Program-made: the position numbers and the translations under genes
Part shown: positions 38,706 to 48,329 of the stretch, piece by piece
How the letters are laid out: every line of letters starts with the position of its first letter
How positions within the stretch are numbered: position 1 is the stretch's first letter
Assembly (NCBI GenBank): GCA_013166775.1
Contig: JABLTJ010000009.1
Location: forward strand, 35,931 to 99,930
Source of the DNA: Promethearchaeati archaeon
GTDB lineage: Archaea; Asgardarchaeota; Heimdallarchaeia; Heimdallarchaeales; Heimdallarchaeaceae
Length of the DNA stretch: 64,000 nt
Direction: 5' to 3'
Notes under the pieces: generated by a model
Seen by the model: only the letters and a program-made list of their open reading frames with translations
The model's database searches: none
What the model was told of the DNA's origin: nothing

Positions 38706-40271
38706 ATGGGAAATGAATCTTTTTCAAGATTAATAGAAAATTGTGATTTTATGAAAAGAAAACTCTTAGTTTATACGTTAATAATAACATTGATTTCTTC
38801 TTTCGTTGGTTTCAATCAATTAGTTGAAGGTTCACTTGAAATTGAAGTTCAACAGAAAAATCTAGCTGATTTTCAGATTCCTCAATTCGATAATACCGTT
38901 ATAATTACTTGGGATGGTGCTTCATCCAAATATATGGACAAATATCTAGATGATGGATCACTTGTGAATACTCTTGAACTTTTAGAAACAGGATATAGAC
39001 AAAAAATCAGAATAACGTCTCATAAAACAAGTACTGATCCAGGTCTTTGTACTATAGAATCAGGTTATGGCCCTGAAATCCATGGAATAACTTACAATAT
39101 GTGGGGTGAGGGTACTATAAAACTTTCAATACCAGATAATCTTACTATCTCAGAACGATTAAAAGACACTTTCGGAGATGAAGTTAAAACAGGCTTAGTT
39201 TTCGCTTGGGGTCTAACTGATAATATAAATTGGACTTATATAAATCAGGCAGAGACAAGAGGATCAATATACGATAACAGCATGAGTGAAATAGATTACC
39301 TGATAGCTTCTGCGAACCTTTCTTGGCAGCCTGATGATCCTGAATCCAGAGCAGCAGCTTATCATGGTTTTGATGAAGGACTTGGAATGTACAAATCACC
39401 CGTATTAACATCAGATTATCTGGGTCAGAAAGCTGCAGAATGGATTCCTACAGTTAAGAATGATAGATTCTACTTGAGAGTTCACTTAACTCAACCAGAT
39501 CAAGAAGGCCACGGGTACGGTGATAGTTCTTCAGAATATAAAGCTGCTCTGAAAGAATGTGATGATGCAGTAGGTTTGATTTTAGATGAACTCGAAGATG
39601 CAAATATTCTTGATAAGACCTTAGTAATGGTTGGAACAGATCACGGTATGTATGGTACAGGTCATAATGCAGGTCCTTGGCCAGATGTTGCAGATGATCT
39701 GAATGAACTTGTGTATGTAATCAGTCATGATTCTATGCGACATGAAGAATCTATAGCAGTTAGCCAACAAGATATTGCCCCTACAGTTCTTGCAGCCATG
39801 GGAGTTGATCTATCTCTACTTACTCCGGCTTACATTGATGATGCTGATACTGGAATTCCTTTCTGGGAAAAAACAGATAGTACAGACCCTAGTATCAAAA
39901 TTGTTTTTTATAAAACAGATAAAATGGATAATTTTGATATTCTTTCTAATGATATAGAGATCAAAGGAAATTTTGACATAAAATTAGACATCAAAGAATG
40001 GAGTCCACTAAGAACTGCGACTCTGCAAATTAGTGATAATACCATTAATGCAGATTTTAATTCATCAAGAAGAGTTGATTGGTTCGATGTAAATCCTAAA
40101 GATAGTGGAACAGGAGTTCAATCCCTAATCTTCACACTTATTGATCCATTCGGAAATGAAGCTACAGAAGAATTTAGCCTAACCTTAAAAGCTCCATCAG
40201 CTTTTTGGATCTCAATTTTACCGATACTTGTAATAAGTACAGTTATCACGTTGAAACGAAAAAAAAGATAA
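38706..40271 (+). CDS. Secreted alkaline phosphatase superfamily (NPP/phosphodiesterase-like) protein with a C-terminal anchor
   Basis: 'IITWDG', 'TSTDPG', 'PDQEGH', 'TDHG', 'DIAPTVL'; start probably ATG 38751. Confidence 0.82.
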   Translation: MGNESFSRLIENCDFMKRKLLVYTLIITLISSFVGFNQLVEGSLEIEVQQKNLADFQIPQFDNTVIITWDGASSKYMDKYLDDGSLVNTLELLETGYRQKIRITSHKTSTDPGLCTIESGYGPEIHGITYNMWGEGTIKLSIPDNLTISERLKDTFGDEVKTGLVFAWGLTDNINWTYINQAETRGSIYDNSMSEIDYLIASANLSWQPDDPESRAAAYHGFDEGLGMYKSPVLTSDYLGQKAAEWIPTVKNDRFYLRVHLTQPDQEGHGYGDSSSEYKAALKECDDAVGLILDELEDANILDKTLVMVGTDHGMYGTGHNAGPWPDVADDLNELVYVISHDSMRHEESIAVSQQDIAPTVLAAMGVDLSLLTPAYIDDADTGIPFWEKTDSTDPSIKIVFYKTDKMDNFDILSNDIEIKGNFDIKLDIKEWSPLRTATLQISDNTINADFNSSRRVDWFDVNPKDSGTGVQSLIFTLIDPFGNEATEEFSLTLKAPSAFWISILPILVISTVITLKRKKR

Positions 40272-40288: not shown

Positions 40289-40744
40289 TTATTCTATTTG
40301 TCCCCAAGTGAGAAATTTACCATCTTTTCTTTTAACTAATACTGTACCAAATTTTCTCCATTGTTCTTCTCTGAATCTTGTCATTCGATAAGCTTCTTCA
40401 TCTTGAACCTTTTTTGTACCTTTTAACAATTCTATTTTTTTCTTTTCGTCATCAAAAAACAGTTTCCGTATATATTTTCCTTCTTTAGGATCTTTTTGTA
40501 TATCTTCAGCAAGATCCATGATTTGCTCTACGGGGAGAAGAGAAAAAAATGATTGATGTTCTGTAAAATAAACGGAGCCAGGACAAACTTTTTCATTTTC
40601 GGATTGTTTCTTACATTCTGTGCAAAACACTAGTTGACATCCATTACAAATTTCCCACCCTTCCAATGCAGCTTCTTTTACTGTATTCATCTTATTACAT
40701 AAAGCACATCTAATGTAGAATTGCATTGCTTCCGTATTCTTCAA
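40289..40744 (-). CDS. Zn-finger (RING-like, Nse1-type spacing) protein, last gene of the SMC operon
   Basis: CALC...CNGC-x4-CTEC-x9-CPG...H; start overlaps the upstream stop. Confidence 0.6.
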   Translation of the reverse strand: MKNTEAMQFYIRCALCNKMNTVKEAALEGWEICNGCQLVFCTECKKQSENEKVCPGSVYFTEHQSFFSLLPVEQIMDLAEDIQKDPKEGKYIRKLFFDDEKKKIELLKGTKKVQDEEAYRMTRFREEQWRKFGTVLVKRKDGKFLTWGQIE

Positions 40745-41349
40745 ATCTTTCTAAACTCCCTAGCTATTTTACGCCTTTCCTTTTCTCCAAATTCTATCCT
40801 CACTCTATAATTATACTTCCACTCATTTTGTTTTCTTTCAATATAGCCTTGCCTGACTAGTTTACGAATTGTATTTTCAACAAAATACTCTTTCATTTTA
40901 CCTGTTACAACGAGCTTTTCTTTAATTTTCTCAGTTGTAATTGGTTCTTTCGATTTACCTTCTATTAGTCCAATAATAGTACCAAGTACAGCTAATTCAC
41001 CTTTTTCTAATTCTGATGGAGCATAGAAATTAGAACGTAAACAATACCATCTCTCTCCTTTAATTTCATATTCTAATACTTCTAACCCAAGAACCTCAAC
41101 AAATCCCTTATATTCTTCGAGTGTCTCTCTCAGAGTATTTATATCAAACCTTGTTGCTAGTAGTAAATCCATCTCTGAGCAACCGAATACCATTGTTTTC
41201 TCTTTAATCCATTTCCTGGATAAAATAGTTGTGAGTTCTTTGAAAAGTTCTCCTTTATCCGAATCAGCTATTGTTGCAGGGAGTTTGATAATGTTCATTT
41301 CTTCATCTTCCTCATGAGAAGAAAACTCCTCTTGAGGTGGCTCTTCCAT
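40741..41349 (-). CDS. KITE (tandem winged-helix; Nse1/Nse3-MAGE-like) SMC accessory subunit
   Basis: 'LAVLGTIIGLI....ITTEKIKEKL...IRKLVRQGYIER....W.Y..RVRIEF' resembles WH-B of Nse1/Nse3; located in the SMC operon. Confidence 0.65.
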   Translation of the reverse strand: MEEPPQEEFSSHEEDEEMNIIKLPATIADSDKGELFKELTTILSRKWIKEKTMVFGCSEMDLLLATRFDINTLRETLEEYKGFVEVLGLEVLEYEIKGERWYCLRSNFYAPSELEKGELAVLGTIIGLIEGKSKEPITTEKIKEKLVVTGKMKEYFVENTIRKLVRQGYIERKQNEWKYNYRVRIEFGEKERRKIAREFRKI

Positions 41350-41366
41350 CAGATTTCACCTTCTTT

Positions 41367-42122
41367 TTATTTTTTTACTGGTGACAGCAAAACTGAGCTT
41401 GAAACTCCCTCGATTTGATTTTCATCAGTAAGCTCTTCAAAGAGTAATTTATCTCCCTCAAGAATGACTTGAATCTTTTTTTCACTGATCATCTTTGATA
41501 GAAGCTCAGCTTCAATTGATGATAACATCACATTAAGTGCTTCACGATTAAACTTTTTCCCTACAAATTTATCATAGATATCTCTTTCAATACTCATATA
41601 ATCACTTTTGCTAAAAATAATATTCTTCAACGGAATGACATATTCTTTATTTTTGGATATGAAACTTTCAAGTTCTGATTCTGATTCCAAAAGGATTTCA
41701 TCTGTTTCAAGAAATGTTCCTATATCAGACACAGGAATAGAATTCTCTCCTTCTATAGCAAATACTGCTTGACTTAATTTCGAAACCAGAAACGCGAATT
41801 GTTCTAATCTCTTCTCCGGATACAATAATTGTTCTAGATAGCTTTTCTCTCTTAGTTCACTCATGTCAATGAAATCACTATAGAGAGCTGAATCAATGAG
41901 ATTTTCTTTTAGATTTTTAAGATAGAGATATGCATCAGAAACCCTTACTCTATCATCTTCTGACTCTTGAACTCCTACAATCGTTTTTACTTTTAGAGAT
42001 CTCGAATATTTTTTCTCTAGTTCAAATAGAGTTTGGAATACAACCTCAGCCCAATTGCTAATTTCATCTACTTTAGAACCTTCAGAAATCTTTCCATCAT
42101 TTACTAAATCGTGATCCGTCAT
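41367..42122 (-). CDS. Putative kleisin (Nse4/ScpA-like)
   Basis: Translationally coupled (ATGA) to the SMC gene. Size and N-terminal helical 'SALYSDFIDMSELREKSYLEQLL' are compatible with a kleisin; the call rests mainly on context. Confidence 0.45.
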   Translation of the reverse strand: MTDHDLVNDGKISEGSKVDEISNWAEVVFQTLFELEKKYSRSLKVKTIVGVQESEDDRVRVSDAYLYLKNLKENLIDSALYSDFIDMSELREKSYLEQLLYPEKRLEQFAFLVSKLSQAVFAIEGENSIPVSDIGTFLETDEILLESESELESFISKNKEYVIPLKNIIFSKSDYMSIERDIYDKFVGKKFNREALNVMLSSIEAELLSKMISEKKIQVILEGDKLLFEELTDENQIEGVSSSVLLSPVKK

Positions 42123-45094
42123 TCTCTCATCTCTGTTTTAGTAACTTTGCTTTCAATCAATACTTTGTGTGAGAATTCTTTCGAAAGATCTACATCATCT
42201 AACATTGGAGTTATTAGGATAAATTGTGGAGTGATAATTCTGTTCTCCCTCGCTAAATTATAAGTAGCAAGAGCCATTGAAAAAGCTAACGCTCTATTCT
42301 TTTTGTCAAGTTTTTGAGTGAATTCATCTATTGCATGTATAGGTGAATGGTTAATCATATGAAGTGCTAATATTATAGCCTGAGCAATTAGTGTTTTTTC
42401 TCCTCCAGATAATTGACGATAGCTTCTCTTATCACCTTTTGTTTCAGCTTCTATAATTAATTCAGCATTCCTTTCTTCATTGTAATTTGTAATCTTAACT
42501 GATATTGTGTCAAAAGTATCCCGCAACAACAAGTTCAACATTCGATTTAAATGAGAGATTATATTATACAATCCTCCTTCCCATTCATCAATTCGTCTTT
42601 CTAAATCTTTTTTAAGATTCTTTAAATGAATCACATTTGCTTGAGCTTCTTTTTCTATTTCATCTACTATCTTTTTCTGATTTTCAACGCTTTCTGATGA
42701 TATATCGGGAGTAATCTCTAATAATTCCAATTGCCCTTTAATCTTATTATACTCTGAAAATATTTCTACTCTATCTTCTCTTATTTCTGCAGGAGTTTCT
42801 CCTTTTTCTTTTGCAAACTTGAGAAGTTGTTTATTTCTTGTTTTAAGTTCTTCTACTTCCATAGATAGAAGTTCTATATGCTTGAGTATTTTCTCTCTTT
42901 TATCTCTGAGGTTTTGAAGATTTTGGGATACTTTATCTATCTTCTGTTTCTCTTTGTCAATAATCTCTTGTTGGTTTTTTAGTTCCTTTTCTGCTTCTAC
43001 TAGTTCATTGTTTAATATTGTAATCTTCTCTTCTAGTTGAGAATTTTCTTCATTATCAACTTCATATTGTGCTTCAAATTCAGTTTTCAGATTCTCTAAT
43101 TTGAGAAATTCTTTTTCCAATTCATCTTGTGTTGCAGTCCAAGGTTTAAGTTTAGATTCCATCTCTCTTTGGTAGACCTCAAGTGATGAAATGTATATAA
43201 TGTATTCTTGCTCTTTGTTTTTTAGTCCTTCAATTTTATTATATAAGTTATCTAATTGTTCTCTAATTCTCTCTATCGATTGATATTTACCTAAATCCAC
43301 TCCTAGTTTCACATTATATGGTTGTGGAGGTCTTCCAAAAGCTTCCAGAGAGAGATAAAAGCTTGAACCATCAGCTGTTAGAATATTAGCTTTTGATTGT
43401 CTAGCAAAATCAGTTAGAATATTAGGAGATAGATGAGGTAATGCAAGAACTATTTTGCAGAATTTTCGAAGGAACATCTTTACTTGAGGAGGAGATTCTA
43501 CTAGATTAACAACAAAATCAATAACGCCATCTGGTTTCTTATCTAATTTTTGACTAAACAAATAGTCAGGTTTAGGCCCTTCTTTTTCTTCTAAAATCCT
43601 TCCTACAGTTATATTAGGTTTATACTGAAAGAATACCTCATCATAAATTTTCTTTGCTTCTTCATAAGCTTCTTGAGTTGTAGCAACAAAACTATAGAGA
43701 TATTTGCCAATTGCAGATTTTATAACATTCTCATATTCTTGGAACTCAGATTTTATCTCTAATACTTCATATAAAGGACCAATGATCTCATCCTTGAAGC
43801 TGGATGTTCTAATCCGTTCTTGGTATGTAATTGTGTTTTTGATTAGGTTTCTTTCATAGTTGCTTAAGTTACCGTAAATTTCTGATCTTTCATCAATCCT
43901 CTTCTTTATTGATTCTTCTTCTTCTATATTTTTTTCCAATTCAAAAACTATTGATTCTTTTTGAAAAATTAGTGCTTTCAATTTAGATTTAAGATTATCT
44001 AATTCTTCCTGCAATTGAATTTTCTTTTCCAATCCCTCACTTGTATTAAGATTTTTGAAATCTTTAATCTGCTTAACAATCTCTGATATTTTTTTTTCTA
44101 AATTTAGAAATTTCCTCTCCTTCTCCTCTTTTTGACCTTTCAGCTGATTCAATTTATCTGACTTTTTTTGTAATTTAATTTTGAAATCTAAACTTATTTC
44201 CTCTAGTTCTTTACACTTAACTAGTAAATCTTCATGTTCCTTATTTTTGTTAAATGCTTTTTCCTTAGTTTTTGAGAATTCAGTTTCTTTATTCTTTAAT
44301 TCTGACTTTACCTCTTTGAATTGCTTCTGTGATTCTAAGGAATCATACCAGTGAAGTTCTTTTTCCACTTCTTCATATCTTGTGATCAATTCTTTTTTCT
44401 TTTGCATTCTTTCTAAATTTTCTTCTAGCTTGGAAAGTTTATTTTGTTCTTTTTCCAATTGTAAAATTAATGGAGAGATTTCTTTTTCTTTCTCATCAAC
44501 ACGTTTCATTGAATCCAAATAGCTTGTAAAAATTTCCTTCAAACCCGTTGCTGCTAAAAGAGTGCTTAGTTTTTTATGAGGAGAACCGTCCGCAAAAGAA
44601 CTTAGATAACCCTCTTCTGTAAAATTAAGCATTGTATCCTCATAAATTCCTATGCTTTTCATTAATCTTTGAACTTGAGCTCGAGTAATATCCTTCGACT
44701 TACCTTTTGCAACTATTTTTCTTTTTATTCTTCCATTTGCTGATATCTCAATCTCAAGAAAGAAGGATTCATTGTTTGCTATCGATATTAGATCAGGATC
44801 AGTTACTGTTATAAGTCTTTGTTCAGATAAAGAAGGATTATTTAGCTCAAGTTGTATGGAACATTTACTACCAAACTGTCCTACTAAATCTTTTGAAGAA
44901 CCTAAGGAAACCCTACTCGGAGTGTGCCCTACTGCGAGTATTAATGCTTCCAATATTTGTGTCTTCCCGCTGCCATTTGCCCCTGATATAACCGTTATTG
45001 GTAGTTCTTCAAGATTTAACTCTGTTTGTTTATGCATCTTGAAGTTTTGAAGCTTTAGGCTTTTGAAGATATAGTTATCTTGAGCTAAAGTCAT
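42119..45094 (-). CDS. SMC family ATPase, SMC5/6-like (ClsN/coalescin-related)
   Basis: Walker A GANGSGKT, two coiled coils, hinge 'IIGPLYEVLEI...AIGKYLYSFVA' lacking the GX6GX3GG motif, signature LSGGEKT, Walker B/D-loop 'AIDEFTQKLD'; 991 aa. Confidence 0.85.
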   Translation of the reverse strand: MTLAQDNYIFKSLKLQNFKMHKQTELNLEELPITVISGANGSGKTQILEALILAVGHTPSRVSLGSSKDLVGQFGSKCSIQLELNNPSLSEQRLITVTDPDLISIANNESFFLEIEISANGRIKRKIVAKGKSKDITRAQVQRLMKSIGIYEDTMLNFTEEGYLSSFADGSPHKKLSTLLAATGLKEIFTSYLDSMKRVDEKEKEISPLILQLEKEQNKLSKLEENLERMQKKKELITRYEEVEKELHWYDSLESQKQFKEVKSELKNKETEFSKTKEKAFNKNKEHEDLLVKCKELEEISLDFKIKLQKKSDKLNQLKGQKEEKERKFLNLEKKISEIVKQIKDFKNLNTSEGLEKKIQLQEELDNLKSKLKALIFQKESIVFELEKNIEEEESIKKRIDERSEIYGNLSNYERNLIKNTITYQERIRTSSFKDEIIGPLYEVLEIKSEFQEYENVIKSAIGKYLYSFVATTQEAYEEAKKIYDEVFFQYKPNITVGRILEEKEGPKPDYLFSQKLDKKPDGVIDFVVNLVESPPQVKMFLRKFCKIVLALPHLSPNILTDFARQSKANILTADGSSFYLSLEAFGRPPQPYNVKLGVDLGKYQSIERIREQLDNLYNKIEGLKNKEQEYIIYISSLEVYQREMESKLKPWTATQDELEKEFLKLENLKTEFEAQYEVDNEENSQLEEKITILNNELVEAEKELKNQQEIIDKEKQKIDKVSQNLQNLRDKREKILKHIELLSMEVEELKTRNKQLLKFAKEKGETPAEIREDRVEIFSEYNKIKGQLELLEITPDISSESVENQKKIVDEIEKEAQANVIHLKNLKKDLERRIDEWEGGLYNIISHLNRMLNLLLRDTFDTISVKITNYNEERNAELIIEAETKGDKRSYRQLSGGEKTLIAQAIILALHMINHSPIHAIDEFTQKLDKKNRALAFSMALATYNLARENRIITPQFILITPMLDDVDLSKEFSHKVLIESKVTKTEMRE

Positions 45095-45212
45095 TCAGTT
45101 ATCACTAGTTTTACCTTTAGGATTCTAGCGACAAAACAGTATTTAAAACAAGCTATTATACAGAACAAAAGTCAAAGTAAAAACAATAAAAGAAAAAGAA
45201 AAAGAAAAAGAA

Positions 45213-48200
45213 TTAAGGTTTGATTTTTTTCTTCAAGGTGACTGCAACTGCTGTAACAAAGATTGTTCCAATTGACCAGAATAGTGCATCATATGAGCCT
45301 AATCTGCGGGTTTGATCTCCTCCACCGAAAACATCAGCTCCTGCTGAGGTTCCTGTTTGAGTAGACTCTCCGTAATCTTCCCAATCTTGTTCGTCCTGAG
45401 TTTGACCATTCATCGAATACAATAATGGAGTTTCAGTTTCGTCTCCTTCAATAGGATCTTCACCAAGTTCGTTAGCAAATCTGCTGTCATATATGATATA
45501 GATACCAGGAATAAAACATCCATGGCTTGTTAGGAACAACCATCTTATGATAATTGTTATTGATTCACCAGGTAGTAACTCAATTCCTTGGAACAGAATT
45601 ATACCCATTCCGTGAGAGATTCCATCAACTATGTCTCCTTCAGAAGAAGATCTAGTAATTAGCTCCATTTCAGTAGCATTGTAGAATTGCATAGCAGTAA
45701 TATGTGTAGCGCTTTCACCTACGTTAGTGATTACAATTGTAACCTCTAATTCCCAAGGTGCATCTTCAGGAATAAATATTGCTGCATCGACAGAAATTTC
45801 TAACACTGGTTGTGGGAATGCGGGTCTCATTTCTTCAGTTGCTGGTAGAAGTATAGCCCAATCCATATTAGATAGAACTACTTGATGAGTTTCTCCTGCT
45901 CCTTCAAAGATTGCATATAATCCTGGAGCAAAATCAACTTCTGTATCAGCAAGTGTATTTTGACCAACATCACTGTCGAAGTAAACAATAGCATAAACAG
46001 AATGAATTCCTAAGAAAGAATTAGCTTCAACATATGCAGAATCACTGTATGTTACGCCTTCTGCTACTATTCCAACGTCGTCATAATAGAATATTTCTGG
46101 ATCTTTAATTTGCCAATCATTACCCATTGTTCCATGAACAAGATATAATTTAACATTTTCTGCATCCAGATTACCTGTATTTTCTATTGAGTAATCAACT
46201 CTTACAGGATCACCTACTGTGTAACCTACATCATCAAGAGATACTTGAACATTCAGAACTGCTTCATCGTCGGCTAATTGCAAGTTGATACCATTGCTAA
46301 ATCCAAAGTATTCAAATCCCTCAGGATCATTATAGCTAAATCTTGCTCCTCCTGAGAACCATATGTCTAACCAAGGATCGTAATAGCTTATTGGACGACT
46401 GTATGTGAATGTGCTTCCTGGATCTTTATCACCGAAAATTAACCTTAATAGATCATAACCTGTTCTTTTCATTGTAGATAATTGTAGAGCAGGATGTGGA
46501 TCACCTAGATATACTGGTGCAACACCCATAACGCCAAATTGAATATTATCGGTTGCTGGAACATTATCTAAAGCCCAACTGAGTGTCTCAGTTCCTCCAT
46601 TTCCTGCTAAGAAAGGTATTGTTGAATTCAAGAATACTTGTTCATATGAGTCTGATCCTATTTCACCAACATCTCTTGTACTAATTCCAAAGTCCATAAA
46701 ATCTGGTACAAATATTGGAACTAATTCGTAGAGTAAATCATATAGTTCATCTCCTGCAGCTACAACAGAAGCAATAGCTTCAGTTTTATAATTAGCTAAA
46801 ATAGCGTTAATTGTTGGAACAATATCCAATACTGAGTTGATAGGATAATCATTAAGATTTATGTCAGCAAGAAAATCTGTTGCTTTATCTACTAAGATTT
46901 GTGGAAGACCATCTGGAGAAGTTAATTTTGCCTCGGTTGTAACATCGCCGAATACCCCCATTACTTCATAAAATGCTAGATCTGTTTTTACAACCTCTTC
47001 TTTCATTGCATGGTTGTAATCTACCCATTCAGCTGTGGTATCATTAACATACCATCCATCAAGTACTAACACTGTTTGAGTGAAAACCAAAGGTTCAGTA
47101 TATGATGCAAATAAGGCACCACCAAAAGTCAATGTTACAGTAGCATTTATTTCTGTAAGAATTCCTTCATCAATAGTTACACCTGGAACAAGTGTTGGTA
47201 AATCTGGTTTTGTTGCCATGAAATTTAGAAATTCAGGACCCAATGCATATCTGATATCAATATTTTCAGCATCTTCAGGTCCAGTATTTGTTACTGTATA
47301 ATCTAATTGCAATCTGCCATCCATATTAAGCATTGTTTGATTATATTCCATATTAACTGATACTCTTGGAACAGAGGCTAACCTAGTGTGATCAATATTA
47401 TATGTAACTATATAATCCATTGCTGGTCTAGGAGCTGCCCAAGGTACATTTAATACCCAATCCATTTTACCTGTAATTTGAGGTGCAAAGTTATTAGGTC
47501 TTGGATCCATTGAGAGTGGATTGATTGTATATGGGAATCGGAATTTAACGGTTGAATATATAATCCAAGGAGTTATACTTGGTCCAATAGTTGTACCAAA
47601 TAGATTGTGTGTTGATAGAGTATAAATTCCTCCACTTTCAGTTATCGCATCTTCATCAACATAGTAAACTCCCCTAACAGGATGTTTAATTCCTTCTAGG
47701 AATGCTTCACCAATGATAATTGCTTTCACTGGAGATGAAGTAACATCTGATGAGCTGATTTCGGATACTAAACCACCACTGATATCTGTTTGAATCTCTG
47801 ATAACAAAGTACCGAATAGAGAAGTTTCCATTCCTCCTGTAAAGAAGTAAAGGAAGTTTCCATTATCAAGTTCTTGAGCTCTTGCCCACATTAAACCAAC
47901 GCCATAAGTTGATGCAAAAAGTATTGCAATATTCACGGCTTTAGCGAGACTAGCATCAGGACCCAAAGAAGCTTTTATTTCAACAACTAAAGTTGCGTTT
48001 TCAGGAGCTCTGAAGGGTCTTCTCATCAAGTAAGGATGGTAGTTAGCTTGATCTGAAGCAATAAAATACCAATTGACTACATTACTATCAAAGAAAGAGC
48101 TAGAGGTTATAGAGGGAGCAACAGCGCCTATTAATAACAACTGAACTAATGCTGCGGAATCAATACCGGCAACAATGTTCATTTCTTCAATTAAAATTGG

Positions 48201-48329
48201 ACTATCAGCTAATTGGCTTGAACGAAGACTGGATGCTGAGATCTGTGCTTGTGTAACAGCACCACTTACTGTAAGAAGTATAATTGTCAAACCTAATATG
48301 GCTGAACCCAATATTGCCTTGTTTTTCAT
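45213..48329 (-). CDS. Large secreted cell-surface/S-layer-like protein with Ig/CARDB-like domains and a C-terminal anchor
   Basis: Signal peptide; repeated 'Y.V.N.G..DAEN' Ig-like modules; acidic; TM + KKKIKP. Confidence 0.7.
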   Translation of the reverse strand: MKNKAILGSAILGLTIILLTVSGAVTQAQISASSLRSSQLADSPILIEEMNIVAGIDSAALVQLLLIGAVAPSITSSSFFDSNVVNWYFIASDQANYHPYLMRRPFRAPENATLVVEIKASLGPDASLAKAVNIAILFASTYGVGLMWARAQELDNGNFLYFFTGGMETSLFGTLLSEIQTDISGGLVSEISSSDVTSSPVKAIIIGEAFLEGIKHPVRGVYYVDEDAITESGGIYTLSTHNLFGTTIGPSITPWIIYSTVKFRFPYTINPLSMDPRPNNFAPQITGKMDWVLNVPWAAPRPAMDYIVTYNIDHTRLASVPRVSVNMEYNQTMLNMDGRLQLDYTVTNTGPEDAENIDIRYALGPEFLNFMATKPDLPTLVPGVTIDEGILTEINATVTLTFGGALFASYTEPLVFTQTVLVLDGWYVNDTTAEWVDYNHAMKEEVVKTDLAFYEVMGVFGDVTTEAKLTSPDGLPQILVDKATDFLADINLNDYPINSVLDIVPTINAILANYKTEAIASVVAAGDELYDLLYELVPIFVPDFMDFGISTRDVGEIGSDSYEQVFLNSTIPFLAGNGGTETLSWALDNVPATDNIQFGVMGVAPVYLGDPHPALQLSTMKRTGYDLLRLIFGDKDPGSTFTYSRPISYYDPWLDIWFSGGARFSYNDPEGFEYFGFSNGINLQLADDEAVLNVQVSLDDVGYTVGDPVRVDYSIENTGNLDAENVKLYLVHGTMGNDWQIKDPEIFYYDDVGIVAEGVTYSDSAYVEANSFLGIHSVYAIVYFDSDVGQNTLADTEVDFAPGLYAIFEGAGETHQVVLSNMDWAILLPATEEMRPAFPQPVLEISVDAAIFIPEDAPWELEVTIVITNVGESATHITAMQFYNATEMELITRSSSEGDIVDGISHGMGIILFQGIELLPGESITIIIRWLFLTSHGCFIPGIYIIYDSRFANELGEDPIEGDETETPLLYSMNGQTQDEQDWEDYGESTQTGTSAGADVFGGGDQTRRLGSYDALFWSIGTIFVTAVAVTLKKKIKP

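What the first reader, a model, noticed from the sequence alone, without database searches (positions are those of the whole stretch)
40289..45094. Compact four-gene SMC5/6-like operon (SMC, kleisin?, KITE, RING-like)
Seen: four co-directional genes, two junctions overlapping by 4 nt. The SMC has a short arm, an SMC5/6-type hinge without GX6GX3GG, and DEFTQKLD. Established: eukaryotic Smc5/6 uses kleisin Nse4 and KITEs Nse1/Nse3 and restricts extrachromosomal DNA; SMC5/6-related proteins are known in archaea (ClsN) including Asgards; bacterial Wadjet/MksBEFG has similar operon logic. Inference: a complete homodimeric proto-Smc5/6 complex encoded in one operon, possibly for chromosome organisation or anti-plasmid/virus defence.
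Basis: partly seen in the sequence, partly recalled or inferred. Interest (0 to 1): 0.78.

Follow-up and report, generated by a model that had tools for sequence, protein, structure and literature searches.

The report
Asgard SMC5/6-like operon, RING-like subunit
This Heimdall-group Asgard archaeon encodes what looks like its only chromosome-clamping SMC complex, a relative of eukaryotic SMC5/6 already known from archaea, plus an undescribed RING-shaped zinc protein that always follows the kite gene and in sister lineages sits beside a private ubiquitin-like tagging kit.

Summary
Four co-directional minus-strand genes sit at 40289-45094: a 991-aa SMC, a 251-aa kleisin-like protein, a 202-aa KITE and a 151-aa zinc protein, with two 4-nt overlaps. 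The SMC is a true SMC, not Rad50. Its closest solved relative is Smc6 over the full length and for hinge and both head halves separately.

The three-gene core is already published as the archaeal "SMC5/6-related" operon (van Hooff et al., bioRxiv 10.1101/2024.01.07.573240).

Points I did not find in the papers I searched:
- The fourth gene is a conserved two-zinc protein of RING/U-box fold class with a near-invariant C-terminal motif. It keeps the same position in about 36 loci from eight Asgard families.
- The whole order of this genome lacks canonical Smc-ScpAB, so this is probably its only SMC complex.
- In sister lineages the zinc gene is followed by JAB and E1 (ThiF) genes and a 103-aa ubiquitin-like ORF. 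That ORF was not found in this order.
- The operon also lies on a 70%-GC bacterial (Planctomycetota-labelled) contig.

"Split Nse1" ancestry is not shown: the ligand pattern is not C4HC3 and no fusion was seen. This scan has reported the same operon before on other DNA.

The parts
42119..45094 (-). SMC ATPase, 991 aa, of the SMC5/6-related archaeal kind. It has short arms of about 235 aa each and a hinge without the glycine motif.
   Evidence: Pfam SMC_N 4.5e-19. The orthologue profile against PDB gives Smc6 134 bits, Pyrococcus Smc head 103, Smc3 80, Smc5 65, Rad50 38. The only significant hinge hit is yeast Smc6 at 2e-5.
41367..42122 (-). Kleisin-like subunit, 251 aa. N-terminal helical domain, disordered linker, C-terminal winged helix.
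   Evidence: AF2 model with pLDDT 74: helices 14-116, low confidence 120-146, winged helix 172-230. Foldseek gives Nse4 7tve_G E=0.037, Brn1 6yvu_C 0.073, Nse4 7qcd_F 0.12. VIA gives 7qcd_F Z 6.9 with 160 residues aligned across 18-251. No sequence-level match in Pfam or PDB. It always lies between the SMC and KITE genes.
40741..41349 (-). KITE subunit, 202 aa, tandem winged helix, Nse1/Nse3-like.
   Evidence: ESM Atlas structure search: archaeal hypotheticals TM 0.60-0.66, eukaryotic Nse1 0.55-0.60, ScpB 0.52, MksE 0.43-0.47. By features, MAGE scores 0.86. Two orthologues hit Pfam MksE weakly at 0.005.
40289..40744 (-). Fourth subunit candidate, 151 aa. Two-zinc RING-like domain (residues about 10-80) plus a near-invariant C-terminal motif REEQWRKFGTVLVKRKDGKFLTWGQ.
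   Evidence: Eight conserved ligands: C13, C/H16, C33, C36, C/D41, C44, C54, H63. AF2 pLDDT is 75-88 over residues 10-80. Structural matches: RNF4 RING Z 6.0 (rmsd 2.4, 58 aligned), Prp19 U-box Z 5.3-6.0, Mms21 Z 4.7. It always follows the KITE gene.
45140..45147 (-). TTTAAATA, an archaeal TATA-box-like element upstream of the SMC start. The T-rich terminator-like tract of the upstream gene lies just before it.
   Evidence: Read directly from the sequence. Promoter function is inferred, not tested.
41356..41360 (-). GGTGA Shine-Dalgarno-like element 6 nt before the KITE ATG, inside the 17-nt gap after the kleisin stop.
   Evidence: Read directly from the sequence.
40259..40266 (-). T8 run 22 nt after the stop of the last gene, the likely end of the transcription unit.
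   Evidence: Read directly from the sequence. Inferred only.

Best explanation
The four genes encode one SMC holocomplex of the archaeal SMC5/6-related lineage. Two copies of the 991-aa SMC pair through their hinges. The 251-aa kleisin bridges the two ATPase heads, with its N-terminal helices on one neck and its C-terminal winged helix on the other cap. A dimer of the 202-aa KITE sits on the kleisin's middle. The 151-aa zinc protein is a fourth, co-translated accessory subunit. No canonical Smc-ScpAB was found anywhere in high-quality genomes of this order, so the complex most likely does the general work of an SMC motor here: ATP-driven DNA entrapment or loop extrusion for chromosome folding, segregation and repair. 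The zinc protein most likely stabilises or regulates the kleisin-KITE module through its conserved C-terminal motif, in the way the Nse1 RING has a structural role in Nse1/3/4. In sister lineages, which keep a JAB-E1-Ubl gene set next to it, it may also couple the complex to ubiquitin-like conjugation. Shown here: gene structure, family assignments, conservation, distribution and gene linkage. Inferred: stoichiometry, all contacts, DNA activity, and any ligase or adaptor role.
For: SMC identity and kind. The published phylogeny places the single SMC and kite of the same family (UBA460) in the 'SMC5-6-related' and 'Nse1-3-related' clades, with no canonical parts (supplementary Table 3; main text). 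KITE. Kleisin layout. Operon signals (4-nt overlaps, SD, TATA, T-run). The order SMC-kleisin-KITE-Zn is invariant in about 36 loci of families f1, f2, f4, f6, f7, f8 and f12 and on a bacterial contig. Zn and KITE profiles hit the same genomes: Zn 62/399, strong KITE hits in the same families. Only SMC: none other in the own genome; no ScpA, and ScpB only at 0.002; none in two closed genomes of the family; 0 of 8 high-quality genomes of the order. Metabolic neighbours and no defence-family match. Link to a tagging kit elsewhere: Prok-JAB and ThiF directly after the Zn gene in f7, f8, f29, f6 and the bacterial copy. A 103-aa ORF ending in VG is found only in operon-bearing families f6, f7, f8 and f12.
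Against: No sequence-level match ties the 251-aa protein to any kleisin family. Its structural matches are below the level that stands out from background. The RING-like assignment rests on a medium-confidence model and Z scores of 6 or less. I could not include eukaryotic SMC5/6 sequences in my own tree, so 'SMC5/6-related' rests on profile scores, with small margins for the two head halves, and on a published tree. No expression data could be obtained. Four fragmentary MAGs of the family do carry canonical-SMC pieces on short contigs. I read these as contamination, but did not prove it.
Confidence: 0.72

Rival explanations
1. The zinc protein is an E3-like ligase or adaptor. It brings a ubiquitin-like modifier onto the SMC complex or its DNA-bound targets. 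Sister lineages would use the private Ubl, E1 and JAB; this genome would use its eukaryote-type ubiquitin and E2 enzymes. This is the archaeal counterpart of the Nse1/Nse2 ligase arms. It is compatible with the main explanation and differs only in what the fourth subunit does.
For: Fold class of RING/U-box E3 domains. A conserved Pro follows ligand 7, as in many RINGs. JAB and ThiF genes directly follow the gene in f7, f8, f29, f6 and the bacterial copy. The 103-aa ORF with a terminal Gly is confined to operon-bearing families. The own genome encodes 4 UBC-like E2 and 2 ubiquitin-like proteins.
Against: No E2 gene was seen in the linked gene set. The whole order of this window keeps the zinc gene although the 103-aa ORF was not found there (0/30, 0/1 and 0/3 genomes), so the protein must have a kit-independent role. 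The most conserved part is the C-terminal motif, not the zinc domain: a Planctomycetota paralogue lost five of eight ligands but kept the motif. RING folds also serve as plain structural modules.
Confidence: 0.3
2. The operon is a defence or surveillance module against plasmids and viruses, working like Wadjet/MksBEFG or like eukaryotic Smc5/6 restriction of extrachromosomal DNA, and not as the housekeeping chromosome organiser.
For: It coexists with a canonical SMC in f7 and f12. It moved as a unit, with JAB, onto a bacterial contig that carries bacterial RF1, in an 8-Mb 70%-GC genome. In the SMC tree the bacterial copies nest among the Asgard ones. E1+JAB pairs are known regulators in bacterial immune operons (my own knowledge).
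Against: It is the only SMC complex found in this order. It is single-copy, and the tree groups it by host family. Neighbours are metabolic genes, not defence genes. There is no nuclease gene. KITE and zinc proteins match no PADLOC model, and the SMC matches JetC at only 33 bits.
Confidence: 0.15
3. Split Nse1: the KITE gene and the zinc gene are the unfused ancestors of eukaryotic Nse1 (KITE plus C-terminal variant RING), so the Nse1 RING is of Asgard origin.
For: The gene order KITE then RING-like matches the domain order of Nse1. The KITE is structurally nearest to Nse1 among named families. The first six ligands have PHD/variant-RING-like spacing. The host is a Heimdall-group archaeon.
Against: Nse1's defining C4HC3 pattern (PMC8750328) is not met: ligand 5 is C or D and ligand 8 is H. 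No Pfam zf-RING-like hit appeared among the 25 listed families for 29 members. No Nse1 chain appeared among the 50 best rows of three structural searches, whereas RNF4, U-boxes and Mms21 did. No fused form occurs in about 36 loci. The published tree places this family's kite in the generic Nse1-3-related group.
Confidence: 0.12
4. The fourth gene is merely an unrelated neighbour that happens to lie downstream.
For: It matches no known family and no physical interaction has been shown.
Against: Position, strand, and overlap or near-abutment with the KITE gene are conserved across eight Asgard families and one bacterial copy at 25-30% protein identity. Its distribution coincides with that of the KITE.
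Confidence: 0.03

Closest known systems
Archaeal 'SMC5/6-related' SMC-kleisin-kite operons of TACK and Asgard archaea (van Hooff, Raas, Tromer, Eme, bioRxiv 10.1101/2024.01.07.573240; SMC5/6-related aSMC of Yoshinaga and Inagaki, PMC8665677)
   Same: A homodimer-type SMC with Smc6-like hinge and heads, followed by kleisin and kite genes in one operon. The paper's Table 3 lists the same family (UBA460) with one SMC5-6-related SMC, one Nse1-3-related kite and no canonical parts.
   Different: The paper describes three genes and states that the Nse1 RING is absent from archaeal kites and is a eukaryotic innovation. Here a separate RING-like gene always follows the kite. The kleisin of this family was not detected by their search. 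The generic operons, for example in Lokiarchaeia, were not hit by the zinc-protein profile (f20 1/134, a marginal hit).
Eukaryotic Smc5/6 core: Smc5-Smc6, Nse4 kleisin, Nse1-Nse3 KITEs, Nse1 C4HC3 variant RING, Nse2 SP-RING
   Same: Smc6 is the best solved match for every SMC region. The arms are short. The KITE is nearest to Nse1 models. The kleisin's only full-length structural matches are Nse4 and Brn1. A RING-class zinc module is associated with the KITE/kleisin part.
   Different: One SMC and one KITE gene, so presumably homodimers. The RING-like module is a separate protein with a C-x2-[C/H]...C-x8-H pattern, not C4HC3, and carries an extra conserved C-terminal motif. No Nse5/6 and no Nse2-type arm binder were recognised.
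Canonical prokaryotic Smc-ScpAB
   Same: Overall SMC-kleisin-KITE logic and operon layout.
   Different: TIGR02169 scores 78.6 bits against a cut-off of 729. The hinge lacks the glycine motif. The partners have no ScpA or ScpB Pfam hits. In the tree it is separated from canonical archaeal and bacterial SMC by a branch with 100% SH-aLRT support.
Wadjet (JetABCD) / MksBEFG four-gene SMC systems
   Same: Four genes including SMC, kleisin and KITE. At least one horizontal transfer of the whole unit.
   Different: The fourth gene is a 150-aa zinc protein, not a Toprim/MksG nuclease. The gene order differs. JetC models match at 33 bits or less, and JetA/JetB models do not match.
Prokaryotic E1(ThiF)-JAB-Ubl gene sets
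   Same: In sister lineages the operon continues with Prok-JAB, ThiF and a 103-aa ORF ending in Gly, or Gly plus 1-2 residues.
   Different: The 103-aa ORF was not found in this window's genome or order. No E2 gene was seen beside it. Linkage to an SMC operon is, as far as I could find, undescribed.

Membership tests
SMC proteins proper (as opposed to Rad50/SbcC/RecN/MukB) | Walker A, signature motif and Walker B/D-loop in a split head; two long coiled-coil arms; a globular hinge instead of a zinc hook | tested here: met
   GANGSGKT at 38, LSGGE at 895, DEFTQKLD at 923, arms at about 185-421 and 603-841, hinge of about 175 aa. Pfam SMC_N 4.5e-19. SMC chains score 58-134 bits against Rad50 at 38 bits.
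SMC5/6-related archaeal SMC clade | Groups with eukaryotic SMC5/SMC6 and not with SMC1-4 or canonical SMC | tested here: inconclusive
   Smc6 is the top solved hit for the full length (134 vs 103 bits), hinge (2e-5 vs 0.019), N-head (47.8 vs 44.9) and C-head (51.8 vs 46.2). In my tree it is separated from canonical SMC with 100% support. No eukaryotic SMC5/6 sequences could be included there. The published tree assigns the family's SMC to this clade.
Canonical Smc (TIGR02169/TIGR02168) | Score above the curated equivalog cut-off; hinge glycine motif | tested here: not met
   78.6 and 123.5 bits against cut-offs of 729 and 567. No GX6GX3GG.
Kleisin (Nse4/ScpA/Scc1 superfamily) | N-terminal helical domain and C-terminal winged helix joined by a flexible linker | tested here: met
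   AF2 model: helices 14-116, low-confidence linker 120-146, winged helix 172-230.
Kleisin (Nse4/ScpA/Scc1 superfamily) | Recognisable homology to a kleisin family | tested here: inconclusive
   Nothing in Pfam or the PDB sequence search. Foldseek Nse4 E 0.037-0.12 and Brn1 0.073. VIA Nse4 Z 6.9 over 160 residues.
Kleisin (Nse4/ScpA/Scc1 superfamily) | Binds the SMC neck and cap asymmetrically | not tested
A head-kleisin model or pull-down is needed.
KITE (Nse1/Nse3/ScpB/MukE) | Tandem winged-helix fold resembling known KITEs | tested here: met
   ESM Atlas model: Nse1 clusters TM 0.55-0.60 over about 160 residues, ScpB 0.52, MksE 0.43-0.47. The C-terminal winged helix is also seen by Pfam.
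KITE (Nse1/Nse3/ScpB/MukE) | Gene adjacent to a kleisin gene in an SMC operon | tested here: met
   True in every locus long enough to tell.
Nse1 (KITE with variant RING) | C4HC3 zinc-ligand configuration (PMC8750328) | tested here: not met
   The pattern is C, C/H, C, C, C/D, C, C, H.
Nse1 (KITE with variant RING) | RING fused to the C-terminus of the KITE | tested here: not met
   Separate genes in all loci examined (about 36). No fused ORF was seen.
RING/U-box fold class (cross-brace two-zinc module) | Cross-brace fold with eight ligands forming two interleaved sites | tested here: inconclusive
   Two aligners list almost only RING, U-box, ZZ and SP-RING domains, but with Z of 6.0 or less and Foldseek E of 0.059 or more. 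A paralogue lost ligands 1, 2, 5 and 6 together while keeping 3, 4 and 7, as a cross-brace predicts. Pfam gives only sub-threshold IBR, C1, FYVE and RING hits.
Wadjet / MksBEFG | JetA/B/C/D or MksB/E/F/G family matches, including a nuclease subunit | tested here: not met
   PADLOC: JetC at 33 bits or less, nothing for the KITE or zinc proteins, no nuclease gene.

The most novel reading that the evidence does not exclude
The zinc protein is an E3-like adaptor that couples an SMC5/6-type motor to ubiquitin-like conjugation. In sister lineages the machinery is a private Ubl, E1 and JAB encoded in the same gene cluster. If so, the pairing of SMC5/6 with protein-tagging ligases (Nse1 RING, Nse2 SP-RING), so far regarded as a eukaryotic invention, would have existed already in Asgard archaea. 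The order of this window would then represent a stage in which the RING-like subunit was kept after the private kit was lost.
Probability: 0.25. Interest if true: 0.85.

Novelty: new variant of a known kind. Interest (0 to 1): 0.66.

Why it matters
SMC5/6 is the least understood eukaryotic SMC complex, and its ligase arms are treated as eukaryotic additions. A compact four-protein homodimeric relative from the archaeal group closest to eukaryotes would be a tractable model. It already carries a RING-shaped subunit, and in sister lineages a dedicated Ubl/E1/JAB set. With it one could ask what the RING module does for an SMC5/6-type motor, and whether SMC function and protein tagging were coupled before eukaryotes arose. 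The apparent replacement of canonical Smc-ScpAB by this complex in a whole order gives a natural test of whether an SMC5/6-type complex can serve as the general chromosome organiser. The transfer into a bacterium shows that the module can work as a portable unit.

Tried and rejected
**Complex prediction.** I ran kleisin + 2 KITE + zinc protein, with the zinc protein as partner. There was no verdict:
- The three runs scored 0.00, 0.47 and 0.51.
- A control with the kleisin replaced scored 0.48.
- I do not use this as evidence either way.

**Sequence searches that gave nothing significant.**
- Sequence-profile searches of the kleisin, KITE and zinc families against PDB. The weak Nse1 hit of the kleisin profile (E 0.11) disappeared with a deeper alignment.
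- ESM Atlas had no model or usable hit for the kleisin.
- No Nse1 chain appeared among the 50 best rows of the three structural searches with the zinc-protein model.

**Readings considered and rejected.**
- The Rad50/SbcC reading of the SMC: 38 bits against 134.
- A 2155-aa hit of the zinc-protein profile is an Ig-repeat protein and is spurious.

**Limit on my own tree.** I could not obtain eukaryotic SMC5/6 sequences by reference, so my tree cannot test SMC5/6 affinity directly.

Full report
**What is there**

The minus strand of 40289-45094 carries four tightly packed genes:
- a 991-aa SMC (42119-45094)
- a 251-aa protein (41367-42122)
- a 202-aa protein (40741-41349)
- a 151-aa cysteine-rich protein (40289-40744, TTG start)

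Several signals point to one transcription unit.
- The first pair of genes overlaps by ATGA and the last pair by TTGA.
- The middle junction is a 17-nt gap with GGTGA 6 nt before the ATG.
- A TTTAAATA box lies about 45 nt upstream of the SMC start, behind the T-rich end of an unrelated secreted CARDB protein gene.
- A T8 run follows the last stop.

- Walker A GANGSGKT, signature LSGGE and DEFTQKLD at 923-930
- no GX6GX3GG motif in this protein or in seven orthologues
- two coiled-coil arms of about 235 residues, shorter than in the roughly 1180-aa canonical SMCs found

**The organism and its SMC inventory**

Record titles of close relatives name Candidatus Heimdallarchaeaceae/Heimdallarchaeota. 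One family member is the closed genome of Ca. Heimdallarchaeum aukensis.

This operon is the only SMC and the only KITE I could find in the window's genome (3.85 Mb, 88.7% complete).
- The canonical SMC model reaches 28 bits.
- ScpA is not found, and ScpB only at E 0.002.

The same holds more widely.
- Two closed genomes of the family have no canonical SMC.
- In the whole order, 0 of 8 high-quality genomes have a canonical SMC.
- Four of 47 genomes have hits, all on short contigs of fragmentary MAGs, one of which has six different pieces. I read these as contamination.

Families f7 and f12 (Hermodarchaeota by record title) have both a canonical SMC and this operon.

**The SMC**

A profile of eight orthologues searched against all PDB sequences scores as follows.

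| Target | Bits |
|---|---|
| Smc6 | 134 (E 3.9e-38) |
| Pyrococcus Smc head construct | 103 |
| Smc3 | 80 |
| Smc4 | 74 |
| Smc5 | 65 |
| Rad50 | 38 |

Searched by domain:
- The hinge has only one significant hit, the yeast Smc6 hinge (2e-5). The next hit is a bacterial Smc hinge at 0.019.
- Both head halves also rank Smc6 first, by small margins.

In my tree the family forms a clade with 99% support. It is separated by a 100% branch from canonical archaeal and bacterial SMCs. I could not obtain eukaryotic SMC5/6 sequences by reference, so that tree does not test the SMC5/6 affinity itself.

The published phylogeny does test it. Van Hooff et al. list the same family (UBA460 in their GTDB release) with:
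- one SMC5-6-related SMC
- one Nse1-3-related kite
- no condensin/cohesin-related parts

These entries are in supplementary Table 3 (column meaning inferred from the text and the LC-3 row). The equation of UBA460 with Heimdallarchaeaceae rests on my own knowledge of the taxonomy.

**Kleisin and KITE**

Neither protein matches Pfam, NCBIfam or PDB at the sequence level.

KITE (202 aa), from the ESM Atlas model of the protein:
- The nearest models are archaeal hypotheticals from Nitrososphaerota and Bathyarchaeota (TM 0.60-0.66).
- Next come eukaryotic Nse1 (0.55-0.60), ScpB (0.52) and MksE (0.43-0.47).
- By features, a MAGE cluster scores 0.86.
- It is therefore a KITE of the Nse1/3-like kind.

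Kleisin-like protein (251 aa), folded with 23 orthologues (pLDDT 74):
- a helical N-domain (14-116)
- a low-confidence linker (120-146)
- a C-terminal winged helix (172-230)

Foldseek's few full-length matches include Nse4 and Brn1 at E 0.04-0.12. The only match from the second aligner that spans both domains is Nse4 (7qcd_F, Z 6.9, 160 residues). These values do not stand out from background. The kleisin call therefore rests on layout and position, not on demonstrated homology or binding.

**The fourth protein**

It has eight conserved metal ligands, C-x2-[C/H]-x16-C-x2-C-x4-[C/D]-x2-C-x9-C-x8-H. It also has a near-invariant C-terminal stretch, REEQWRKFGTVLVKRKDGKFLTWGQ.

The AF2 model is confident only for residues 10-80. 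For that part, Foldseek and two runs of a second aligner list almost nothing but RING, U-box, ZZ and SP-RING domains:
- RNF4 RING: Z 6.0, rmsd 2.4 A, 58 residues
- Prp19 U-box: Z 5.3-6.0
- Mms21/Nse2: Z 4.5-4.7

The scores are modest. The consistency supports the fold class, not a family.

A diverged Planctomycetota paralogue lost ligands 1, 2, 5 and 6 together (and 8) while keeping 3, 4 and 7. This is what an interleaved cross-brace predicts.

The pattern is not the C4HC3 of the Nse1 variant RING (PMC8750328).

A profile search of 1.8 billion representatives found only 42 relatives, so the family is small.

**Conservation**

The zinc-protein profile hits 62 of 399 Asgard genomes.

| Family | Genomes with a hit |
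|---|---|
| f1 | 27/30 |
| f2 | 1/1 |
| f4 | 3/3 with the broader profile |
| f6 | 2/2 |
| f7 | 11/12 |
| f8 | 1/1 |
| f12 | 16/19 |
| f29 | 1/1 |
| f3 | 0/12 |
| f5 | 0/22 |
| f20 (largest family) | 1/134, marginal |

Strong KITE hits fall in the same families.

In every locus long enough to judge, about 36 in all, the order is SMC, kleisin, KITE, zinc protein. Protein identities to the window go down to 24-30%. No fused KITE-zinc gene was seen.

More distant KITE relatives in f14 and f28 sit in different SMC-like clusters without the zinc gene.

**Linked genes in sister lineages**

Earlier notes of this scan pointed to a ubiquitin-like kit next to the operon in other lineages. I tested this.
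- In f7, f8 (Ca. Asgardarchaeum abyssi), f29 and f6, the zinc gene is followed by a Prok-JAB gene (PF14464, about 1e-9). Where the locus extends far enough (f7, f8, f29), a ThiF-type E1 gene follows the JAB gene (PF00899, 1e-36 to 1e-39).
- In Hermodarchaeota the same two genes lie about 3.5 kb upstream of the SMC.
- A 103-aa ORF belongs to the neighbourhood. It ends in ...QVG in f7 and in ...EVG plus one or two residues in f12, like a ubiquitin-like modifier and its precursor.
- Across 399 Asgard genomes this ORF occurs only in f6 (2/2), f7 (10/12), f8 (1/1) and f12 (18/19). It was not found in f1 (0/30), f2 or f4, that is in the window's order, nor in the window's genome.

The window therefore shows the four-gene core without the kit. 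Its genome does encode four UBC-type E2 and two ubiquitin-like proteins elsewhere.

**Transfer to bacteria**

A 63.5-kb, 70%-GC contig of an 8-Mb MAG labelled Planctomycetota (DATKZY010000100.1) carries all four genes in order, followed by a JAB gene.
- HMM scores are 760, 150, 151 and 138 bits.
- All eight zinc ligands are kept.
- The contig also carries bacterial release factor 1 at 463 bits.

A second Planctomycetota MAG has the SMC on one contig and a degenerate zinc-protein paralogue behind a kinase-like gene on another.

In the SMC tree these copies nest among the Asgard sequences. They have long branches and skewed composition, so their exact place is unsure.

**Reading**

The best explanation is a four-subunit SMC holocomplex of the SMC5/6-related lineage. 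In this order it has become the only SMC complex, and so it is probably the general chromosome organiser.

The neighbourhood supports this:
- The flanking genes are metabolic.
- There is no nuclease gene.
- Defence-system models do not match beyond generic ATPase similarity.

The zinc protein is best read as an accessory subunit with a kit-independent role, since it is retained where the 103-aa ubiquitin-like ORF was not found. An E3-like or adaptor role in ubiquitin-like conjugation is a serious second reading, because of the gene linkage in five other lineages.

Descent of the Nse1 RING from this gene is possible but unsupported.

The one complex-prediction job gave no verdict.

No paper I could find describes the fourth gene or its link to the JAB/E1/Ubl set. 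The main paper calls the Nse1 RING a eukaryotic innovation absent from archaeal kites.

This scan has reported the same operon repeatedly in other genomes.

Noticed in passing
L082 (G399 contig C100, DATKZY010000100.1) 52-5656: The complete SMC-kleisin-KITE-zinc-JAB set lies on a 70%-GC contig of an 8-Mb genome labelled Planctomycetota. The contig also carries bacterial release factor 1. This looks like an inter-domain transfer of the whole module.
   Followed up: partly
L081 (G400 contig C279) 5165-9030: In a second Planctomycetota MAG, a degenerate copy of the zinc protein follows a 1100-aa protein-kinase-like ORF instead of a KITE gene. Five of its eight ligands are lost but the C-terminal motif is kept.
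   Followed up: partly
L014:11314-11622 (+); L015:4468-4770 (-); all f12 loci directly upstream of the SMC: A 103-aa ORF with no family match is 50% identical between Heimdall-class f7 and Hermodarchaeota. It ends in VG, or VG plus 1-2 residues, and is probably the ubiquitin-like modifier of the linked E1/JAB pair. It occurs only in operon-bearing families.
   Followed up: partly
L015:3021-3413 (-), L017:8407-8766 (+); second hits in f7 genomes: Short paralogues of the zinc protein (about 115-130 aa) carry the N-terminal zinc domain only, without the C-terminal motif. They lie near the operon in Hermodarchaeota and 10-13 kb away in f7.
   Followed up: no
L018:8636-9280 (-) (Ca. Heimdallarchaeum aukensis): A 214-aa stand-alone copy of the SMC N-terminal head half lies about 2 kb upstream of the full operon. 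It is 55% identical to residues 4-201 of the window's SMC and is annotated 'ATP-binding protein'.
   Followed up: no
L083:13-5611 (G030, family f3 of the same order); L084: Family f3 has neither this operon nor a canonical SMC. Its only long SMC_N protein (942 aa) follows overlapping 450- and 475-aa genes and scores 12 bits with this family's profile. It is a different SMC-like system. A similar layout (459 aa + 835 aa + 218 aa + KITE-like 172 aa) occurs in f14 (L046).
   Followed up: partly
G094:C43:5400-6863: A Hermodarchaeota genome has a third SMC-like gene (942-aa frame, 88 bits with the canonical SMC model) besides its canonical SMC and this operon.
   Followed up: no
window 45213-48329 (-): The upstream gene encodes a 1038-aa protein with an N-terminal signal-like segment, CARDB/DUF11 domains and a C-terminal membrane anchor, probably a surface protein. 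It is unrelated to the operon.
   Followed up: no
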